A DNA stretch of 63,379 nucleotides, the filler included. It is 9 parts of 9 records of this genome, joined end to end, with 100 filler letters (N's around TTAATTAATTAA, not from the genome) between each part and the next. Parts side by side here need not be neighbours in the genome. Positions count along the whole stretch, not along the records: positions 57,882 to 63,379 come from SRR31147125_26626; 8 more parts are not named here. One strand, written 5' to 3'. Each line of letters starts with the position of its first letter. The stretch's first letter is position 1. Positions 8,609 through 63,379 of the stretch are shown one piece after another. Both the position numbers and the translations under genes were made by a program. Below the pieces are notes generated by a model. That model saw only the letters and a list, made by a program, of their open reading frames with translations, made no database searches and was not told where the DNA came from.

Positions 8609-10032
8609 AACAAGTAGATAAATCGAAATTAGTTTTTGTAAGAGATGCTAACGAACATATTAATGATGTGAAACTTGAAACTAAAGAAATAGGATATTAT
8701 CAAGATTCATGGAATAGATTTAAAAAGAATAAGGCTTCATTAATTGCTTTTATTATAATATGTGTTATGTTGACATTTGTGATTTTTGGACCATTTTTAA
8801 AACCATATAATACAGATGATAATCCAATTGAGGCACCAAGGCTTGCCAATCTTACACCAAGAATCCCATATCTCGAAAATTTAGGTATTTTTGATGGTAC
8901 AAAAGAGATTACGGTTGGTAAAGAGTTTTTAATTTATTTATATAATAGTGATTTTGAAGAAAATGTAATTCTAGATGGTTTTCCAGAAGAATTAATTGAA
9001 GATCCGAATCACCCTGATTATGCAGAAATCAAATCATTAACTGTTACAGTTGATTACTATAAATATATAAACTTCACTAAATCTTTCATGCCTTCAGATT
9101 ACTTTGGCAATTATAATCTAAATATTACAAACAATGCGTCTCCAGGTGATATTAATTATGTAAATCCTTTAGGTTCAGTAACTAGACCTTTAGACTCAGA
9201 AGAGCAATTTTTAGAGTATGTTGAAAAGAATTATATTATAGATGTATTAAGTATTACAGAATCGACAAATGCTGATACTGGTGAAACTGAATATACTTAT
9301 AATGTTAGAATTAATCAATTTCTAGTTACACTTGATCAAGAACCAGAAGATACGTATTTTTGGTTTGGAACGAATGCTGACGGAGAGGATTTATTTAATC
9401 TTATTTGGTATGGCGCTAGAGTATCTTTATTAATGGCCATTGCAGTTGTGTCAATTAATGCGATTATTGGGATATTTATAGGTTCTATAGCAGGGTATTA
9501 TGGTGGGGTTGTTGATTTACTTATGGATAGAGTTGTTGAAATTGTAGCCTCCATACCACTTTTAACTGTTTTAACATTAATGGTTATTAGATTTGGCTCC
9601 GCATTTTGGGTAATTATTATTGCATTTACACTTACTAGATGGATTGGGAATTATGGTACAGCACGTATGCAGTTTTATCGATTTAAAAACAGAGAATACG
9701 TATTAGCTGCCAGAACATTGGGTGCTAAGGATGCACGTATTATGTTTAAGCATATCTTTCCAAATACATTGGGTCTATTGGTAACCAGATTAGCATTATC
9801 AATCCCATTGTTTGTGTTCACAGAAGCTTCGTTCTCATTCTTAGGTATTATTGATTATACTGAAGCAACTAGTGTTGGTATGCTAATCAATGATGGACAA
9901 AACGTGATGGATCAATTCCCTCATTTACTTATATTCCCTTCAATTTATATATCAATCATGATGATTGCATTTAATTTGTTTGGTAATGGGTTGAGAGATG
10001 CATTTAATCCGTCATTAAGAGGTGTTGAATAA
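8605..10032 (+). CDS. oppC: Oligopeptide ABC permease OppC with a large extracytoplasmic insertion
   Basis: DSWNRFKKNK, FWFGTN..GEDLF, REYVLAARTLGA, GNGLRDAFNP; ATGA overlap with oppB. Confidence 0.9.
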   Translation: MKQVDKSKLVFVRDANEHINDVKLETKEIGYYQDSWNRFKKNKASLIAFIIICVMLTFVIFGPFLKPYNTDDNPIEAPRLANLTPRIPYLENLGIFDGTKEITVGKEFLIYLYNSDFEENVILDGFPEELIEDPNHPDYAEIKSLTVTVDYYKYINFTKSFMPSDYFGNYNLNITNNASPGDINYVNPLGSVTRPLDSEEQFLEYVEKNYIIDVLSITESTNADTGETEYTYNVRINQFLVTLDQEPEDTYFWFGTNADGEDLFNLIWYGARVSLLMAIAVVSINAIIGIFIGSIAGYYGGVVDLLMDRVVEIVASIPLLTVLTLMVIRFGSAFWVIIIAFTLTRWIGNYGTARMQFYRFKNREYVLAARTLGAKDARIMFKHIFPNTLGLLVTRLALSIPLFVFTEASFSFLGIIDYTEATSVGMLINDGQNVMDQFPHLLIFPSIYISIMMIAFNLFGNGLRDAFNPSLRGVE

Positions 10033-12422: not shown

Positions 12423-12522
12423 NNNNNNNNNNNNNNNNNNNNNNNNNNNNNNNNNNNNNNNNNNNNTTAATTAATTAANNNNNNNNNNNNNNNNNNNNNN
12501 NNNNNNNNNNNNNNNNNNNNNN
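12423..12522. other. Artificial contig linker (first of eight)
   Basis: N-run, TTAATTAATTAA (stops in all frames), N-run. Identical linkers at 18815-18914, 26877-26976, 33910-34009, 39162-39261, 44438-44537, 51394-51493 and 57782-57881. Confidence 0.99.
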
Positions 12523-18814: not shown

Positions 18815-19077
18815 NNNNNNNNNNNNNNNNNNNNNNNNNNNNNNNNNNNNNNNNNNNNTTAATTAATTAANNNNNNNNNNNNNNNNNNNNNNNNNNNNNN
18901 NNNNNNNNNNNNNNCGAAGCCTTGGTAATCGTTTTTAGCTGCCATCGATCTGTCCTCCGGAATGACTCTATGACCCTTACCCCTTAGCAAATAGAACAGC
19001 GGTCATCCTGGAATGAATGACCGCCGTCAATACATCAAACAATAGATGCTCTTCTATCGCCTGTATCCTTAAGCGGA

Positions 19078-26876: not shown

Positions 26877-26976
26877 NNNNNNNNNNNNNNNNNNNNNNNN
26901 NNNNNNNNNNNNNNNNNNNNTTAATTAATTAANNNNNNNNNNNNNNNNNNNNNNNNNNNNNNNNNNNNNNNNNNNN

Positions 26977-33909: not shown

Positions 33910-34486
33910 NNNNNNNNNNNNNNNNNNNNNNNNNNNNNNNNNNNNNNNNNNNNTTAATTAATTAANNNNNNNNNNNNNNNNNNNNNNNNNNNNNNNNNNN
34001 NNNNNNNNNGTGGCAGACGGGTCTGCCATGGCCGTTTATATGAAAAAACTCCCGCTCATTGGTTCGAGGATTTTTATTCACCATAAGTGCTGCACGTGTG
34101 ATGCATTTTGCTTGATTTGGGGATTGATTTCTGATTAGAGTGTTTGAGAATCAAGTCTCACACACGGTAGAAAACAATGTTAACATTAGAAAAACTGAAA
34201 TTAATGAATAAAAAAATCTAGAGATTAATACCCCTCATTAATGGGAAAAGTCAAGGAATCGGTATGGATGTTTTAGTTTCCGCTCTGTTTTTAAAGAAGA
34301 GTCATAATCCGTGAGGCAATTATGAATTACAAGGCGCTAAACGTCTACGGCGACACTTGTTTTCTTACTCATTTTAAATGACATGCACAAGTCAAAACAC
34401 TCTGTCGTTAACGGGCGACGGGTTACCGTATCTTAAATGGGAAAGATATTTCGTTCTCATTCCTTAATTCCGGGGGCGTATTTTCA

Positions 34487-39161: not shown

Positions 39162-39261
39162 NNNNNNNNNNNNNNNNNNNNNNNNNNNNNNNNNNNNNNN
39201 NNNNNTTAATTAATTAANNNNNNNNNNNNNNNNNNNNNNNNNNNNNNNNNNNNNNNNNNNN

Positions 39262-44437: not shown

Positions 44438-44537
44438 NNNNNNNNNNNNNNNNNNNNNNNNNNNNNNNNNNNNNNNNNNNNTTAATTAATTAANNNNNNN
44501 NNNNNNNNNNNNNNNNNNNNNNNNNNNNNNNNNNNNN

Positions 44538-51393: not shown

Positions 51394-51493
51394 NNNNNNN
51401 NNNNNNNNNNNNNNNNNNNNNNNNNNNNNNNNNNNNNTTAATTAATTAANNNNNNNNNNNNNNNNNNNNNNNNNNNNNNNNNNNNNNNNNNNN

Positions 51494-57781: not shown

Positions 57782-57881
57782 NNNNNNNNNNNNNNNNNNN
57801 NNNNNNNNNNNNNNNNNNNNNNNNNTTAATTAATTAANNNNNNNNNNNNNNNNNNNNNNNNNNNNNNNNNNNNNNNNNNNN

Positions 57882-57915
57882 TTTATTACCAACATGGTTG
57901 GTTATAGACTGATAC
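57882..57915 (-). CRISPR. First (leader-proximal) direct repeat of a type VI CRISPR array, cut off by the contig end
   Basis: Minus strand GTATCAGTCTATAACCAACCATGTTGGTAATAAA: 34 nt visible, stem ACCAAC/GTTGGT. Adding AC would give a 36-nt repeat ending AAAAC, as in Cas13 repeats. It lies 190 nt downstream of cas13 on the same strand. Only one copy is visible. Confidence 0.65.
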
Positions 57916-58104
57916 CCTATTTTATACCTTTTAGCCCTTTAAAATCAATATCTATTTTTGCCAATCTGTCGACCTCTGTCAAATTCTTATATTTCTAAAT
58001 AAAATTTCAAGCGTTATTTTCTAAACTGAGTAATTAGTAAGTCTCTAGCATCTGTCGACCCATAGGGATTTTTACGCTATCTAGGGTCGACAGATAATTT
58101 TAAA
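57916..58104 (-). promoter_or_regulatory. Putative CRISPR leader
   Basis: AT-rich non-coding stretch between the cas13 stop and the repeat; 12-bp inverted repeat at 58050-58061/58084-58095 and a third ATCTGTCGACC copy at 57964-57974. Confidence 0.65.
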
Positions 58105-60762
58105 TTATTTTACCTCTTCCATCTCTTTTCTCTTACGCTCGTTTCCTTTTATTATTTCATTGACTATTCTTTTCTCATTTTCTAATAGTCCTATTTTTTC
58201 AAGTAAAAACTTATTTATAACTTCATAACTTTTCATTTTATAAGCAACGTAGTAGCTGTTTGGATTATCGCTATCTTTAAGTATTTTTTGTATATTAGTA
58301 CTTTTATTTTTATCTGCTTCGTCATTACTTTCTAACCTTTTTCTTAATTGAGTAATTTTCATAGAGAAGTCATTTAGAATATCAAAATCCAAAACCCGAT
58401 TTTTTTCGAATTCTGTTTTAATAAATTCAAATATTTCTTTTCTTGTACCAGAAACAGCTTTTCCCATCCCATTTTTAACTTTTTTATTTTCATTTTTATA
58501 CATAAATCCATATAGTAATTCATCATAATTCAAATGAGCTATTGAATTTCTAAGTCCCAAAGGAATCCAGTTTATATTCAAAATATTTTTTATTGCATTT
58601 AAGAAGCTAAAATATTCTATAATTTTTATTTCAATAATCTTTTTAGTTTTTTTATCTCTTTTAACATTCTCTCTTAATTTTTCATCTTGAATTATTTCTT
58701 CTAATATTCTATTTTTCCCACTTTTATTATCATATGTCAATAGACAATTCATCTCAAAATCATTTAACAACTTAAATAGTATAGAGTAATATTTAAAGAT
58801 TGAAGACAATAACCTTGTTTCAAACTCTTCTTGATTATGAGAAATTTGCAACTCTTTAAATAGTTGCTTATTTTCCTTAACAAAAGTTTTTGATAAAGAA
58901 TAATCTAAAATATTAATTTTTCTCATATTTCTTTCAACTATCTTAACTTTTAAAGAAAATCCAATTTCTTGCTCATTTGTTGTCTCATCAATAAAATCCG
59001 TATCAATATGCTTAATGTCATAATTATATTTCTTAATGAATCCTAAAAAATCACCTTTTAACTCTTTAGGAATAAATGTTAATATTAGTAAAATAAACTT
59101 TATACCAAATTCATCTTTCAATAACTCCTCTAGTGATGTTTCCTCTTTATTTTTAAGCTCTTCAATTAAATCTATCTCTTCATTACCTTCATATGAGCAT
59201 TCTAGAAATTTCTTTAAATCATTAAAATAATAACTCTTTTTATCGTCTTTTAAATTCTTAGAAAAATTCTGTTTAAAAAATTCAAAATCTTTGTATTCGC
59301 TAATTATGAATCCAAATGCTAATCTAAATTTAGTTTCAAAATAATTTATTTTGTTTTGCTTAACTACTTCTTTCATCGTCTCTTTTTGACTCTGAATATC
59401 TTTATTTATTTTATTAATCTTCTGTCCATTTTCACTTGAATCTTTTAGTAGCCCTTGTAACTCTGTTATCATTTTTTTATGTTTTACATATTCGTTCTTA
59501 TATTTTCTACATTGGTGAATATCAAAATAATAAAATTCATGTTCATCAATATTTTTTTCCATGTTATTTTCTTTCAGATGTTCTTTTAAGGTAGAATTTT
59601 CGATTCCATCTACAACTAAAAAATCATTAATAAATTTGTTAAATCCTTCTCTATTTATTGCCAAAGAATTATAGAGTTTATGAATAGCTTGTAACTTATA
59701 ATCTTTTCCAAATAATTTTATAGTTTCATCTTCAATATGCTCTATATTTTTAGATATATTTAAATCCTTCACATTTTTTACTACTAAATCTAAAAACTCT
59801 ATCTCATTAAGTTTGTCATATAAAGAGCTATTTTCATTATTTTTAGAAAATATTTTATTTATAAACTCATAATCATAGTGCATTAAAGCATGCCTTAACT
59901 CACTAAATATCTCAACTATTTTTTCAATATCTAACTCTAGCTTTTTATTATTAGATAAATAATTTTTTAAGATTTCTTCATTTACGTTTTGATTAAAACT
60001 TTCTCTAAAGAAATTTATAGTTTTTGCTTTATCTTTCTCATTCAATTTGCTTACATTTAATTTCCATAATTCATTTTGCTTTTTTCCAACTTTTCTAAAA
60101 TACTTATCAATAAAAGAATAAAAAAACATTAAGTTAGAACGATAACTTAAAAATCGTTTAATTTTATAAATTTCCTGACTATCGATCTTATCGCGATTCA
60201 CTCCCGATATCCTATGATATAAATCAATTGTCTCATCAGTTAACAAATTTCTTTCTGTTTGGGTTATTTTTTTATATTCGTCCTTAACTAACTTATATAA
60301 CTCTACTATCACAGTTTTTTTAGTAATTTTATCAGACCTATACTTATAATCCTCTGATTTAGGAATATATTCTTCTTTTGCAACAAGCTCTCCATTATTG
60401 TTTTTGTATTTATAAAATTTCCCTTCTTTTTTTATCAAAGTTACTATATACTTATCTTTTTTACTTTGACTTTCATAGGTTACTTTATATTTTTGAGGTG
60501 GTACCTTAACTGATAAATATAAGTCATTATTAATTTTGAATAATTCGCTAGTACATTCTTTCTTTTTATTATTAACTACTACCTTTTTTAACATAATTTT
60601 ATCGCCTTGAACTACACTTTCAGTTATATCTATTTTAATTAACTTAGCTAATTTTATATTTCTAATTTTGATTTGTTTTACTTTCTCTGTATCAAAGTTA
60701 GAAACAATGATTTTTGGTATCGAATTTCTATTTGATGGATTTTTTACTTTATTTTCACTCAT
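58105..60762 (-). CDS. cas13c: Compact type VI CRISPR effector, Cas13c-like, 885 aa
   Basis: AAGGAG RBS 8 nt before the ATG at 60762; HEPN motifs RHALMH (R290-H295) and RNSIAH (R738-H743); blocks NRNSIPKIIVSNFD, IYKIKRFLSYRSN, GFNKFINDF..DG.EN, ELKGDFLGFIKK..YDIK and FKYY..FKLLND match Fusobacterium Cas13c as I recall it. Confidence 0.9.
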   Translation of the reverse strand: MSENKVKNPSNRNSIPKIIVSNFDTEKVKQIKIRNIKLAKLIKIDITESVVQGDKIMLKKVVVNNKKKECTSELFKINNDLYLSVKVPPQKYKVTYESQSKKDKYIVTLIKKEGKFYKYKNNNGELVAKEEYIPKSEDYKYRSDKITKKTVIVELYKLVKDEYKKITQTERNLLTDETIDLYHRISGVNRDKIDSQEIYKIKRFLSYRSNLMFFYSFIDKYFRKVGKKQNELWKLNVSKLNEKDKAKTINFFRESFNQNVNEEILKNYLSNNKKLELDIEKIVEIFSELRHALMHYDYEFINKIFSKNNENSSLYDKLNEIEFLDLVVKNVKDLNISKNIEHIEDETIKLFGKDYKLQAIHKLYNSLAINREGFNKFINDFLVVDGIENSTLKEHLKENNMEKNIDEHEFYYFDIHQCRKYKNEYVKHKKMITELQGLLKDSSENGQKINKINKDIQSQKETMKEVVKQNKINYFETKFRLAFGFIISEYKDFEFFKQNFSKNLKDDKKSYYFNDLKKFLECSYEGNEEIDLIEELKNKEETSLEELLKDEFGIKFILLILTFIPKELKGDFLGFIKKYNYDIKHIDTDFIDETTNEQEIGFSLKVKIVERNMRKINILDYSLSKTFVKENKQLFKELQISHNQEEFETRLLSSIFKYYSILFKLLNDFEMNCLLTYDNKSGKNRILEEIIQDEKLRENVKRDKKTKKIIEIKIIEYFSFLNAIKNILNINWIPLGLRNSIAHLNYDELLYGFMYKNENKKVKNGMGKAVSGTRKEIFEFIKTEFEKNRVLDFDILNDFSMKITQLRKRLESNDEADKNKSTNIQKILKDSDNPNSYYVAYKMKSYEVINKFLLEKIGLLENEKRIVNEIIKGNERKRKEMEEVK

Positions 60763-60802
60763 ATGCAAGACTCCTTTTAAAATTATCAGCATTCCAATAC
60801 TA

Positions 60803-60833
60803 AGTATACCACAAACATATACATTAGTTTCAA
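60803..60833 (-). promoter_or_regulatory. Candidate cas13 promoter
   Basis: Minus strand TTGAAA, 19-nt spacer, TATACT, with an extended -10 TG motif. Confidence 0.45.
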
Positions 60834-61010
60834 TACCTACCTATATTTCTAAATTTAATGGAGGGGCAGATTCCATATCTGCCCTAGCCAAAACGATCTA
60901 TTTACTCTATGCAAACTATATTAACACCCACCTTTTTGGAAATTCCCCATATAGATGCTATAATTAATATTGAAAACAACATTAATATAGTTAATAACTG
61001 GAGGGATAAT

Positions 61011-61865
61011 ATGCCAAATAAACATTTCGTAAAAAATTCCATAGGAATTTTAAAGGAAGTATTACTTTGCACACCACACCATATAGAGCTACATCCAATT
61101 GATGTAATATCACAGAAGTGGTTAGACGAAGAGCCTGAATTAGATAGAGAGCTGTGTCTAAAGGAACACTCCGCTCTAAAGAAAGCCTATGAAGACAACG
61201 GTGTCAAGGTGGACATAATAGACCCTCAGGAACATCTACCTAGTCAGGTATACGCTAGAGATTTTGGTGCATGTATCAGAGAAGGGGTTATTATTGGGAA
61301 GTTCAAAGAGAGTATTCGAAATAAGGAAACCAAAGAGTATAAAAAGAAAATAGAGGAGATTGGTATACCTATAGTTGCAGAGTGTACAGAAGGGGTTTTC
61401 GAAGGTGGAGACTTCTGGTTCTTAGATGACCACACTTTAGCCATAGGTATCATCGCCAGAACTGATTATACAGGCATTAGAAACATTGGTAAACAGCTTA
61501 AACAATATGGTTACTCTATCATCCCAGTTGAGTGTGACGAAGAATATCTTCATCTTGATATGGTGTTCAATATAGTTGCTGATAAAATCGCTGTAATATG
61601 CAGTGAGGCTCTCCCCGATAAGTTCATTGATGAACTTAATAGAAGAGGTTTCACCCTTATTGATGTGCCAAGAGAGGGCGTATTCAAGCACTACTGTAAC
61701 CTACAAGCACTAGGTAATGGTAAGGTTATCTCTACCAAAGCAAATAAAATAGTTAATGCTGAGATGAAAAAACTCGGACTAGAAGTAATTGAGGTAGATT
61801 TATCTGAAATTCTAAAAAGTGGTGGAGGACCTCACTGTATGACCTTCCCTTTAAAGAGAATATAA
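61011..61865 (+). CDS. Amidinotransferase / dimethylarginine dimethylaminohydrolase family protein
   Basis: GGAGG RBS; VYARD, FEGGD, YLHLD, GGGPHCMT. Confidence 0.88.
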   Translation: MPNKHFVKNSIGILKEVLLCTPHHIELHPIDVISQKWLDEEPELDRELCLKEHSALKKAYEDNGVKVDIIDPQEHLPSQVYARDFGACIREGVIIGKFKESIRNKETKEYKKKIEEIGIPIVAECTEGVFEGGDFWFLDDHTLAIGIIARTDYTGIRNIGKQLKQYGYSIIPVECDEEYLHLDMVFNIVADKIAVICSEALPDKFIDELNRRGFTLIDVPREGVFKHYCNLQALGNGKVISTKANKIVNAEMKKLGLEVIEVDLSEILKSGGGPHCMTFPLKRI

Positions 61866-61940
61866 TAATATTGAGATTTTGTGTATAATAAATAAAATAC
61901 ACAAATGTAATTTCTATTTCTTTCTCTTAAACATACTAAA

Positions 61941-61978
61941 AAAATCCCCTTTATCCAAAAGAGATATAGGGGATTTCA
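61941..61978. terminator. Bidirectional terminator between convergent genes
   Basis: AAATCCCCT..AGGGGATTT hairpin. Confidence 0.6.
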
Positions 61979-61988
61979 TATTTTTAAA

Positions 61989-62387
61989 CTATTTCACAGG
62001 CATAATTAAAGGAAAACCAGCTCTTTGAAGAGCTCCAACTCCACCTTTTAGATTATATACCTCTTTAAATTTTAATTTTTTCATCAAACTAAGTGCATGT
62101 CCACTTCTATTTCCTGATCTACAATATATTACATATTTTTTATCCTTATCAAGAGCGTCCAGTTTATTAGCAAAATCATTTGAATAATAATCTATATTGA
62201 TCGCTCCTTCTACATATCCTCCATTTAGCTCTCCAGGAGTTCTAATATCCAGTATAATTACTTCCTTATCCTTTATCAGCTCCTCAAACTCTTTTACATC
62301 GATATTTTTAAAAATCCCCTTCTGTCCAAAGAAGCCAAAAGCAGAAAATGATATTCCAATCAGAAAAAGCATTACTATGTTTTTCAT
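61989..62387 (-). CDS. Rhodanese-domain protein with signal peptide
   Basis: LDIRTPGE, YCRSGNRS, NLKGG. Confidence 0.88.
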   Translation of the reverse strand: MKNIVMLFLIGISFSAFGFFGQKGIFKNIDVKEFEELIKDKEVIILDIRTPGELNGGYVEGAINIDYYSNDFANKLDALDKDKKYVIYCRSGNRSGHALSLMKKLKFKEVYNLKGGVGALQRAGFPLIMPVK

Positions 62388-62535
62388 TTTCTTATCCTTT
62401 CCAAGAATCATATTGAGTAAAAGCTCAATAAATTCTTAATTTAATTTGTTCAGTTTAATTATAGTATAAAATTTATGAAAAATCAGTTCCAATGTAAAAA
62501 TTCATTACTTTTTATGTAAAAAAACAGTTTTTCCC

Positions 62536-62596
62536 TTGACTCATTATTTTTTTTAAAGTATTATATGAGTGTAAATGCATATGCGTATATACTCAT
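62536..62596 (+). promoter_or_regulatory. ars promoter with putative ArsR operator
   Basis: TTGACT, 17-nt spacer, TATTAT, immediately followed by the imperfect palindrome ATGAGTGTAAATGCAT/ATGCGTATATACTCAT (13/16). Confidence 0.75.
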
Positions 62597-62620
62597 GTAC
62601 GCTTTAGGGAGAGTGATCTA

Positions 62621-62971
62621 ATGACAATTGTTGATTTACTTAAAGGTCTAGCTGATGAGACAAGGATTAGAATATTAAACATAGTTAGTTATGGAGAGCA
62701 TTGTGTATGTGATATTGAGGAGATTCTTAATCTTACTCAATCAAATGCATCTAGGCATCTTAACAAGCTAAAGTCTCTTAAACTTATTGATGCGGAAAAG
62801 AAAGCTCAGTGGGTTTATTATACTCTTAATGAAGCCACTTTAGAGGAGTATCCTTTTATCAGTAGTTTAATTAAAGAGAATTTTGATGAAGAGATGTTTA
62901 AGAGTGATTTAGAGAAAAGAGAGATTTATTTAAAAGAGAAGCATAGCTGCAAGCTTGGGGAAAGTAAGTAA
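62621..62971 (+). CDS. arsR: ArsR/SmtB repressor
   Basis: LADETRIRIL, EHCVCDI, QSNASRHL. Confidence 0.9.
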   Translation: MTIVDLLKGLADETRIRILNIVSYGEHCVCDIEEILNLTQSNASRHLNKLKSLKLIDAEKKAQWVYYTLNEATLEEYPFISSLIKENFDEEMFKSDLEKREIYLKEKHSCKLGESK

Positions 62972-63106
62972 GCGAGCAATCGTGATTGAAGGTGTATGGG
63001 AACGTTTATTAAAAATATTTAAAATTAGTAGTTATTTTAAATACATATTTTTCTAAAAGATTAGAATAAAACTCTCAATCTTAGGAAAATATCTAGAGGA
63101 GGAAAG

Positions 63107-63379
63107 ATGAGTAAGGAACAAGGAATTAGTTTTTTTGAGAGGTATTTAAGTGTGTGGGTAGCTTTATGTATTGTTGTTGGTGTTGCCATAGGTAAGTTTT
63201 TACCTATTGTTCCAGATTTTTTAGGTCAATTTGAATATGCTAAAGTATCTATTCCAATAGCTATTCTTATTTGGATGATGATATTTCCTATGATGCTAAA
63301 GATTGATTTTACTAGTATCGTTCATAATGCAAAACAGCCAAAAGGTTTAACTGTTACTATTGTTACTAACTGGATTATT
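63107..63379 (+). CDS. acr3: ACR3-family arsenite efflux permease (3' truncated)
   Basis: MSKEQGISFFERYLSVWVALCI..IFPMMLKIDF..NW. Confidence 0.9.
   Translation, partial: MSKEQGISFFERYLSVWVALCIVVGVAIGKFLPIVPDFLGQFEYAKVSIPIAILIWMMIFPMMLKIDFTSIVHNAKQPKGLTVTIVTNWII

What the first reader, a model, noticed from the sequence alone, without database searches (positions are those of the whole stretch)
57882..57915. Cognate CRISPR repeat hidden at the contig edge
Seen: the last 34 nt of the contig read GTATCAGTCTATAACCAACCATGTTGGTAATAAA on the cas13 strand, with an ACCAAC-CAT-GTTGGT hairpin. Knowledge: Cas13a/c repeats are short hairpins ending in AAAC with the spacer on the 3' side, and assemblies often break at arrays. 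Inference: this is repeat 1 of the array, probably 36 nt ending AATAAAAC. Array finders would miss a single truncated copy, so the locus may have escaped array-based mining.
Basis: partly seen in the sequence, partly recalled or inferred. Interest (0 to 1): 0.8.

Follow-up and report, generated by a model that had tools for sequence, protein, structure and literature searches.

The report
First repeat of a Cas13c array
The 34 bases at the contig edge are the cut-off first repeat of a small CRISPR array that follows a compact, divergent Cas13c gene, which is an ordinary layout for this rare RNA-targeting system.

Summary

- **The gene.** About 190 nt upstream on that strand an 895-aa ORF ends. 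It is a clear Cas13c: NCBIfam NF038193 at 478 bits against a cutoff of 150, with two R-x4-H motifs.
- **Beyond the edge.** Another assembly of the probable source run holds a 90-nt contig that joins 57911 back to 57882 with 35 other letters between. That is repeat-spacer-repeat with a 65-nt period. A 31-mer of the motif has depth 170 against about 29 for the contig, suggesting about six copies. The two letters beyond the edge complete ...AATAAAAC, as predicted.
- **Relatives.** 16 of 23 related Cas13c loci carry arrays downstream on the gene's strand. Their periods are 64-69 nt and their repeats have the same build.
- **Independent model.** A covariance model built only from relatives' repeats ranks the edge first in the window, though weakly (17.7 bits, E about 0.33).
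- **Correction.** The conserved repeat is about 31-32 nt, not 36.

Verdict: real, correctly interpreted, and a new member of a known kind.

The parts
57882..57911 (-). First (cas13c-proximal) CRISPR repeat, cut by the contig end. These are 30 of about 32 nt. The hairpin is ACCAAC-CAT-GTTGGT, and the last two letters (A, C) lie beyond the edge.
   Evidence: Sequence. Recurrence with a 65-nt period and depth 170 against 28.9. Top hit of model R1. Alignment with 11 relatives' repeats, 9 invariant columns. Fold.
57912..57915 (-). The second copy does not share it, so it is probably leader flank or a poorly conserved 5' fringe.
   Evidence: table 5c: the letters next to 57911 in the joined copy differ from 57912-57915.
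57916..58104 (-). Gap between the cas13c stop and repeat 1, the putative leader.
   Evidence: Most relatives have gaps of 20 to about 450 nt.
57919..57948 (-). Promoter-like site TTGATT-18-TAAAAT. Its -10 hexamer ends 7 nt before the repeat core.
   Evidence: 9 of 12 matches. A consensus match only.
57954..57982 (-). Promoter-like site TTGACA-17-AAAAAT.
   Evidence: 10 of 12 matches. A consensus match only.
58050..58096 (.). GTCGAC-centred palindrome forming a hairpin of 13 or more base pairs just after the cas13c stop. A third half-copy lies at 57964-57975.
   Evidence: Near-identical pieces on other contigs of run X1 (records 7 and 8).
58105..60792 (-). cas13c ORF of 895 aa. The true start is probably the ATG at 60762 (M11), because homologues align from residues 14-20.
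59878..59895 (-). HEPN motif 1, RHALMH (R300-H305).
   Evidence: R300 and H305 are invariant in 10 of 10 aligned Cas13c proteins.
58534..58551 (-). HEPN motif 2, RNSIAH (R748-H753).
   Evidence: R748, N749 and H753 are invariant in 10 of 10.

Best explanation
The contig edge is the first, leader-proximal repeat of a small type VI-C CRISPR array, probably about six repeats. The array lies about 190 nt downstream of a compact cas13c gene and on the same strand. It continues beyond the edge, and both assemblers stopped there because the repeat is multi-copy.

Inferred mechanism:
- The array is transcribed in the cas13c direction, either from a promoter in the 190-nt gap or by read-through.
- The pre-crRNA is cut upstream of the hairpin.
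- Each mature crRNA then carries a 5' handle of about 30 nt (...CUAUAAC, hairpin, AAUAAAAC) followed by its spacer.
- Cas13c loaded with it binds complementary RNA and cleaves RNA with its two HEPN sites.

Shown here: gene identity, recurrence of the repeat, its family likeness, its position and its strand.

Inferred only: transcription, processing and RNase activity.
For: 1. Gene identity. NCBIfam VI_Cas13c scores 478.4 bits against a cutoff of 150 over residues 18-848. PADLOC Cas13c models match with E as low as 5e-139. RHALMH and RNSIAH sit at columns that are invariant in 10 of 10 proteins.

2. Recurrence (run X1).
- A 90-nt contig at depth 28.7 lies on 57882-57911 twice, with 35 other letters between. 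That gives a 65-nt period.
- 31-nt unitigs on the motif have depths of 50, 100, 170 and 50. The 5501-nt contig that covers the whole stretch has depth 28.9.
- That long contig also stops at 57882.

3. Repeat ending. The last two of the 35 letters (G, T on the + strand) precede 57882. The repeat therefore ends AATAAAAC on the cas strand. AAAC is invariant in the 7 relatives' repeats of alignment A2.

4. Layout in relatives. Arrays lie downstream on the gene's strand in 16 of 23 related loci: 8 of 12 from genomes and 8 of 11 from metagenomes.
- Periods are 64-69 nt.
- Gaps from stop to first repeat are 20-451 nt in 14 of the 16. Here the gap is 189-193 nt.

5. Independent model. Model R1 was built from 7 relatives' repeats without ours. 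Its hairpin is 96.9% paired, and 3 of 5 pairs covary. Its best hit on both strands of the 63-kb window is 57911-57880(-), at 17.7 bits.

6. Repeat likeness. In the 12-row alignment A3, 9 columns are invariant, ours included. The nearest clade (L001, L013-L016) shares TATAACC...GGTAATAAAAC.

7. Leader side. In 7 of the 8 genome-locus arrays the repeat farthest from cas13c is degenerate. By the usual rule (recalled), this places the leader on the cas13c side.

8. crRNA orientation. PMC9554183 (passages) states that Cas13a, Cas13c and Cas13d use crRNAs with a 5' DR.
Against: - Only two copies are physically linked. The rest of the copy number is inferred from k-mer depth in what looks like a metagenome, where other organisms could contribute.
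- Run X1 is probably the sample the contig came from. It is a second assembly of the same reads, not an independent sample.
- Table 5c does not say on which strand its letters are printed. If it were the other strand, the repeat would not end in AAAC, although the 65-nt recurrence would stand.
- The covariance-model hit is not significant by itself. It scores E about 0.33, and the runner-up scores 15.9 bits.
- No copy of the repeat was found in JGI metagenome contigs or IMG/VR (0 and 0). Rfam gave no match.
- The one recovered spacer has no convincing target. It found nothing in phages. In plasmids it found one 25-nt match of 92% identity with E 0.3. It found nothing in the window.
- The 2.6 kb on the other side of the gene holds no cas1 or cas2.
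- Nothing here shows expression or processing.
Confidence: 0.9

Rival explanations
1. A solitary repeat: the remnant of a lost array, or a lone repeat-like leader element, with nothing repeated beyond the edge.
For: The window holds only one copy. No exact copy was found in two public collections.
Against: A 90-nt contig of run X1 carries the motif twice, 65 nt apart. The core 31-mer has about 5.9 times the single-copy depth. Two assemblers also break at the same base, which is how multi-copy sequence behaves.
Confidence: 0.03
2. A non-CRISPR interspersed palindromic element (REP or MITE-like), scattered in the genome, that happens to sit after cas13c and breaks the assembly.
For: The gap does hold a different repeated palindrome, the GTCGAC hairpin (records 7 and 8). 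High k-mer depth alone would also fit a dispersed repeat.
Against: The motif matches the Cas13c repeat build column by column. It is the top hit of a model made from Cas13c repeats only. It sits on the strand and side where 16 of 23 relatives have arrays. Its second copy follows at 65 nt, inside the relatives' range of 64-69 nt.
Confidence: 0.04
3. A real array that is an inactive fossil: no adaptation genes, no expression, and spacers that no longer match anything.
For: The contig holds no cas1 or cas2. The one recovered spacer has no convincing target. The array is small.
Against: The cas13c ORF is intact with both HEPN motifs. Repeat 1 is intact as far as it can be seen. Promoter-like sites precede it. 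One spacer is too few to judge targets. Lack of cas1 and cas2 is reported for several other Cas13 subtypes (PMC9554183 passages) and, by recall, is usual for VI-C.
Confidence: 0.15

Closest known systems
Type VI-C CRISPR-Cas loci with long Cas13c (Fusobacterium, Cetobacterium, Tissierella, Anaerosalibacter; loci L003, L005, L006, L008-L010, L012)
   Same: - A single effector with two R-x4-H motifs.
- The array lies downstream on the same strand.
- The repeat is built as ...CTA(T/A)AC, a hairpin of 4-6 base pairs, then (G)A(A/T)T(A/T)AAAC.
- The conserved core is about 30 nt and the period about 66 nt.
   Different: - The protein is 895 aa against 1061-1111 aa and only 27-29% identical.
- After HEPN2 it has 148 residues against 255-308. 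Between the motifs it has 448 against 486-516.
- The hairpin letters differ (CCAAC/GTTGG against CTCAC/GTGAG).
Compact Cas13c clade from Sulfurovum MAGs and JGI metagenomes (L001, L011, L013-L016; P0002, P0003; PADLOC model PDLC02154)
   Same: - Short Cas13c of 822-857 aa, lacking the C-terminal extension.
- The array lies directly downstream.
- The repeat shares TATAACC...GGTAATAAAAC with ours.
- L013 is likewise cut inside repeat 1.
   Different: - Identity is only 33-42%.
- Their repeat is 36 nt with 30-nt spacers and begins 20-24 nt after the stop.
- Ours has a core of about 31-32 nt with spacers of about 33-34 nt, and a 190-nt gap that holds a palindromic element and promoter-like sites.
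- Our protein has about 55-60 more residues before HEPN1.
Cas13a and Cas13d crRNAs
   Same: The repeat hairpin is followed by ...AAAC, and the spacer lies 3' of it (5' DR handle). PMC9554183 passages group Cas13c with them. The repeat sequences themselves are recalled, not taken from any call.
   Different: - The protein families differ: only Cas13c profiles matched here.
- No solved structure matches this protein by sequence (0 chains at E up to 0.01).

Membership tests
CRISPR array | Near-identical direct repeats at regular spacing, separated by unique spacers. | tested here: met
   two copies are linked in one 90-nt contig with 35 other letters between, giving a 65-nt period. That contig has single-copy depth (28.7), so the spacer is unique.
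CRISPR array | Three or more copies seen directly. | tested here: inconclusive
   Only depth is available: 170 against 28.9, about six copies. The remaining contig pieces were not shown.
CRISPR array | Adjacent to cas genes. | tested here: met
   The repeat lies 189-193 nt downstream of the cas13c stop codon on the same strand.
Type VI-C repeat | Sequence and structure like the repeats beside other cas13c genes: CTATA(A)C flank, short hairpin, AATAAAAC tail. | tested here: met
   Alignment A3 has 9 invariant columns across 12 repeats, ours included. Model R1, built without ours, ranks the edge first of 11 hits with E up to 10, at 17.7 bits and E 0.33.
Type VI-C repeat | Array downstream of cas13c, with the repeat's AAAC end pointing away from the gene. 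| tested here: met
   16 of 23 related loci have this layout. L013 ends inside repeat 1. L002 has two copies in the opposite orientation. Two of the other five (L007, L020) have the gene cut by the contig end, and three (L004, L011, L023) keep 71, 111 and 304 nt after the stop with no repeat seen.
Cas13c (NCBIfam NF038193) | Score above the curated cutoff over the full profile. | tested here: met
   478.4 bits against 150, profile positions 1-861 of 865.
Cas13c (NCBIfam NF038193) | Two HEPN R-x4-H motifs. | tested here: met
   RHALMH at 300-305 and RNSIAH at 748-753. The R and H columns are invariant in 10 of 10.
Cas13c (NCBIfam NF038193) | crRNA-guided RNase activity and pre-crRNA processing with a 5' DR handle. 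| not testable with these tools
   Only literature is available. PMC9554183 passages state a 5' DR for Cas13c. PMC9569848 passages say structural and functional data for Cas13c are lacking.

The most novel reading that the evidence does not exclude
The locus is a working member of a separate, deep branch of compact type VI-C systems. Its effector is about 885 aa, at most 42% identical to any of 1.84 billion cluster representatives, and it lacks the C-terminal extension of canonical Cas13c. Its own handle is 31-32 nt with unusually long spacers of about 33-34 nt, and its array has its own promoter. It would be a new small RNA-guided RNase from the least studied Cas13 subtype, one with no solved structure.
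Probability: 0.45. Interest if true: 0.45.

Novelty: new member of a known kind. Interest (0 to 1): 0.3.

Why it matters
For annotation, the result shows that the guide-RNA scaffold of an effector can be recovered from a single truncated repeat at a contig edge. Here the recovered core is 30 nt from the window plus 2 nt from the run's other assembly. Array-first mining would drop such loci, and a related metagenome contig (L013) is cut in the same way.

For biology, Cas13c is the least characterised classical Cas13 subtype. The family is rare, with 54 relatives at E up to 1e-3 among 1.84 billion representatives. No solved structure was found by sequence. A compact, divergent member with a known repeat can be tested directly. 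Beyond that, the layout is what type VI-C loci normally look like.

Tried and rejected
**Searches for more copies of the repeat**
- No whole genome is held for the window.
- The exact 29-nt repeat pattern found 0 matches in JGI metagenome contigs and 0 in IMG/VR.
- Rfam at E up to 10 on 57882-58200 gave 0 matches.
- No fragment of the repeat lies at any of the other contig edges in the window. Those contigs range from 0.31 to 0.56 GC against 0.276 here, so they may belong to other organisms.

**Searches for related loci**
- The single-protein scan of genome contigs found none. The alignment-based scan then found 12.

**Spacer targets (the 35 letters)**
- Phage records: no match at E up to 1.
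- Plasmids: one 25-nt match of 92% identity with E 0.3 in an Emticicia plasmid, taken as chance.
- The window itself: 0 matches at up to 3 mismatches.
- I did not scan IMG/VR with the spacer alone.

**Other checks**
- Run X2 laid nothing, which is no evidence either way.
- Host lineage: the neighbouring amidinotransferase-like gene gave only 25-30% identical matches. These were in 26 of 151 genomes sampled from the phylum of L010 and 2 of 151 from the phylum of L001. The result is inconclusive.
- This scan holds no earlier findings for this genome or this protein.
- The hairpin as a cas13c terminator was rejected. It lies about 190 nt from the stop, has no T run, and no terminator-like site was found.
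- Cas13e of PMC9554183 was considered because of its size (about 800 aa). It was rejected because that paper describes it as lacking the N-terminal domain and using a 3' DR (passages). I could not compare sequences.
- A paper search for 'cas13c' + 'type vi-c' + 'fusobacterium' returned 0 papers.

Full report
**What the window is.** The 63,379-base window is not one molecule. Eight N44 + TTAATTAATTAA + N44 joints divide it into nine contigs. Their G+C ranges from 0.276 to 0.559, so they need not come from one organism. The finding lies at the first bases of the last contig (57882-63379, G+C 0.276).

**The observation.** The + strand 57882-57915 reads TTTATTACCAACATGGTTGGTTATAGACTGATAC.
- As RNA it folds into the ACCAAC/GUUGGU hairpin at -6.3 kcal/mol, with z -2.11, and 9 of 200 shuffles fold as well or better.
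- The window holds no second copy. The 19-mer at up to 3 mismatches gives 1 match. Each 16-nt half at up to 3 mismatches gives only the site itself.

**The neighbouring gene.** On the minus strand an ORF of 895 aa runs from 60792 to 58105.
- It matches NCBIfam NF038193 (type VI-C Cas13c) at 478.4 bits against a cutoff of 150, over profile positions 1-861 of 865.
- It matches four PADLOC Cas13c models, the best at E 5.3e-139. Pfam has nothing for it above threshold.
- It carries RHALMH (300-305) and RNSIAH (748-753). The R and H columns are invariant in all 10 aligned Cas13c proteins.
- It is a compact form. After the HEPN2 arginine it has 148 residues against 255-308 in the seven proteins of 1061-1111 aa. 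Between the two motifs it has 448 against 486-516.
- It is divergent and the family is rare. The word-indexed search gave 9 relatives, the best 36% identical. The exhaustive search of 1.84 billion representatives gave 54 at E up to 1e-3 and 25 at E up to 1e-30, none above 42% identity.
- No solved structure matches by sequence.
- The other side of the gene holds an amidinotransferase/DDAH-like gene, a rhodanese, an ArsR regulator and the start of an SBF-family transporter. There is no cas1 or cas2.

**What lies beyond the edge.** One public run, X1, holds all sampled words of the stretch and is flagged as the possible source of this DNA. Its Logan contigs were laid on 57882-63379.
- A 5501-nt contig at depth 28.9 covers the whole stretch and also stops at 57882.
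- A 90-nt contig at depth 28.7 lies on 57882-57911 with its last 30 letters. Table 5c reports a joint from 57911 back to 57882 with 35 other letters between. The motif therefore recurs head to tail with a period of 65 nt, and the intervening letters are at single-copy depth.
- Four 31-nt unitigs lie on the motif.
  - The one that runs two letters past the edge has depth 170, about 5.9 times 28.9.
  - The one that keeps the window's C at 57911 has depth 50.
  - The one with another letter at 57911 has depth 100.
  - A fourth, which differs at 57911-57912, has depth 50.
- I read this as about six copies with a conserved core beginning at 57910 or 57911. That gives a repeat of 31-32 nt and spacers of about 33-34 nt.

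Caveats on this evidence:
- X1 is probably the same sample, so this is a second assembly and not a second sample.
- Only two copies are physically linked.
- Depth in a mixed sample can include other organisms.
- Table 5c does not state its strand.

**Relatives.** An alignment of 10 Cas13c proteins (A1) found 12 loci in genome contigs and 11 in metagenome contigs.
- My k-mer-chain scripts found arrays downstream of cas13c, on its strand, in 8 of 12 genome loci (L001, L003, L005, L006, L008, L009, L010, L012). They found the same in 8 of 11 metagenome loci (L014-L019, L021, L022).
- The other seven break down as follows:
  - L013 ends after 24 nt of its clade's first repeat.
  - L002 has two copies in the opposite orientation.
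  - L007 and L020 are cut within the gene.
  - L004, L011 and L023 keep 111, 71 and 304 nt after the stop, with no repeat seen.
- Periods are 64-69 nt, mostly 66. Ours is 65.
- Gaps from the stop to the first repeat are 20-24 nt in the compact clade and 89-451 nt in ten others. My crude stop finder gave 970 and 1142 nt for L009 and L008, which I did not check. Ours is 189-193 nt.
- The far repeat is degenerate in L001, L005, L006, L008, L009, L010 and L012. By the usual rule (recalled), this puts the leader next to cas13c, so the window's copy is repeat 1.

**Likeness of the repeat.** On the cas13c strand all these repeats are built alike: a (G)ACTA(T/A)AC-type flank, a hairpin of 4-6 base pairs, and a tail ending in AAC, mostly AAAC, for example (G)AATAAAAC.
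- In the 12-row alignment A3, 9 columns are invariant with ours included.
- The compact clade's repeat shares TATAACC...GGTAATAAAAC with ours.
- The hairpin is supported by covariation among the seven relatives' repeats of A2. Cells are 96.9% paired, 3 of 5 pairs change on both sides, and the covariation score of 0.600 is reached by 1 of 500 shuffles. Sliding the partners drops pairing to 34-50%.
- A covariance model built from those seven, without ours (R1), was run unfiltered over both strands of the window. Its best hit of 11 at E up to 10 is 57911-57880(-), at 17.7 bits and E about 0.33, with the last two positions falling on N. The next hit is 15.9 bits at 9287-9316.
- The score alone is not significant. 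However, the top hit falls within the 250 nt downstream of cas13c on the correct strand, a target of roughly 0.2% of the positions searched (my estimate).

**The gap.**
- A GTCGAC-centred palindrome at 58050-58096 follows the stop directly. It folds into a hairpin of 13 or more base pairs, with no T run.
- A third half-copy lies at 57964-57975. Near-identical pieces occur on other contigs of run X1 (records 7 and 8), so it looks like a small dispersed palindromic element.
- Two promoter-like sites lie on the cas13c strand: TTGACA-17-AAAAAT (57982-57954, 10 of 12) and TTGATT-18-TAAAAT (57948-57919, 9 of 12). The region holds 7 such sites against 1.7 expected. The second would start transcription at about the first base of the repeat. 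These are consensus matches only.

**Mechanism.**
- *Shown:* a Cas13c gene with intact HEPN motifs, and a family-typical repeat that recurs beyond the edge on the same strand.
- *From the literature:* Cas13a, Cas13c and Cas13d act with a 5' DR (PMC9554183, passages). Cas13c lacks structural and functional data (PMC9569848, passages).
- *Inferred by analogy with Cas13a and Cas13d (recalled):* the pre-crRNA is cut upstream of the hairpin. This leaves a handle of about 30 nt, which would explain why only the last 30-32 nt of Cas13c repeats are conserved in many loci. The spacer then guides RNA binding, and HEPN cleavage follows.

**Targets.** The one recovered spacer gave nothing convincing in phage or plasmid records or in the window. 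One spacer is too few to judge.

**Papers.** Of the 61 papers that hold 'Cas13c', 'direct repeat' and 'crRNA', 15 were listed. I read passages of two. Supplements were closed, and the DR alignments in the supplement of PMC9554183 may bear on the repeat comparison.

**Verdict.** The layout is what type VI-C loci normally show, so this is a new member of a known kind. The mild interest lies in the effector, a compact and deeply divergent Cas13c whose guide scaffold is now known.

Noticed in passing
window 1-63379 (joints at 12423-12522, 18815-18914, 26877-26976, 33910-34009, 39162-39261, 44438-44537, 51394-51493, 57782-57881): The window is nine contigs joined by N44 + TTAATTAATTAA + N44 spacers. 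Their G+C ranges from 0.276 to 0.559, so they probably come from different organisms (a metagenome-type record). Neighbouring contigs are not context for one another.
   Followed up: partly
window 58050-58096 and 57964-57975: A GTCGAC-centred palindrome (GGGTCGACAGAT arms) sits between cas13c and the array, with a third half-copy nearby. Near-identical pieces lie on other contigs of run X1. It may be a small dispersed palindromic element inserted into the leader.
   Followed up: partly
window 60762-60792: The ORF's first ATG is probably not the start. Homologues and profiles align from residues 14-20, and a second ATG (M11, 60762) precedes MSENKVKN.
   Followed up: no
L013 3041-3064: A related compact-Cas13c metagenome contig also ends inside its first repeat (24 nt of the clade's 36-nt repeat). 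The same assembly break hides the array there too.
   Followed up: yes
L002 4659-4754: In this Sarcina MAG contig, the two repeat copies after cas13c are in the opposite orientation to the gene. Read on the other strand they begin AGTCTATA like ours. It is the only such case among the 23 loci.
   Followed up: partly
L015 3357-3530 and L016 2800-3560: In the compact clade, the degenerate last repeat runs into a GGGGGCGATTGC(C/T)ATCGCACC palindromic element. That element recurs on both sides of a 151-aa IS200-like Y1 transposase ORF (Pfam PF01797, E 3.9e-12). This looks like a REP/RAYT-type element abutting the array end.
   Followed up: partly
L009 5872-6040: A second periodic k-mer chain of three copies lies about 4 kb upstream of cas13c in the Tissierellaceae locus. 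I did not examine it.
   Followed up: no
window 60909-63379: The genes on the other side of cas13c are an amidinotransferase/DDAH-like gene, a rhodanese, an ArsR-family regulator and the start of an SBF-family transporter. There are no adaptation genes. The best matches of the first gene in two sampled phyla were only 25-30% identical, so the host lineage stays open.
   Followed up: partly
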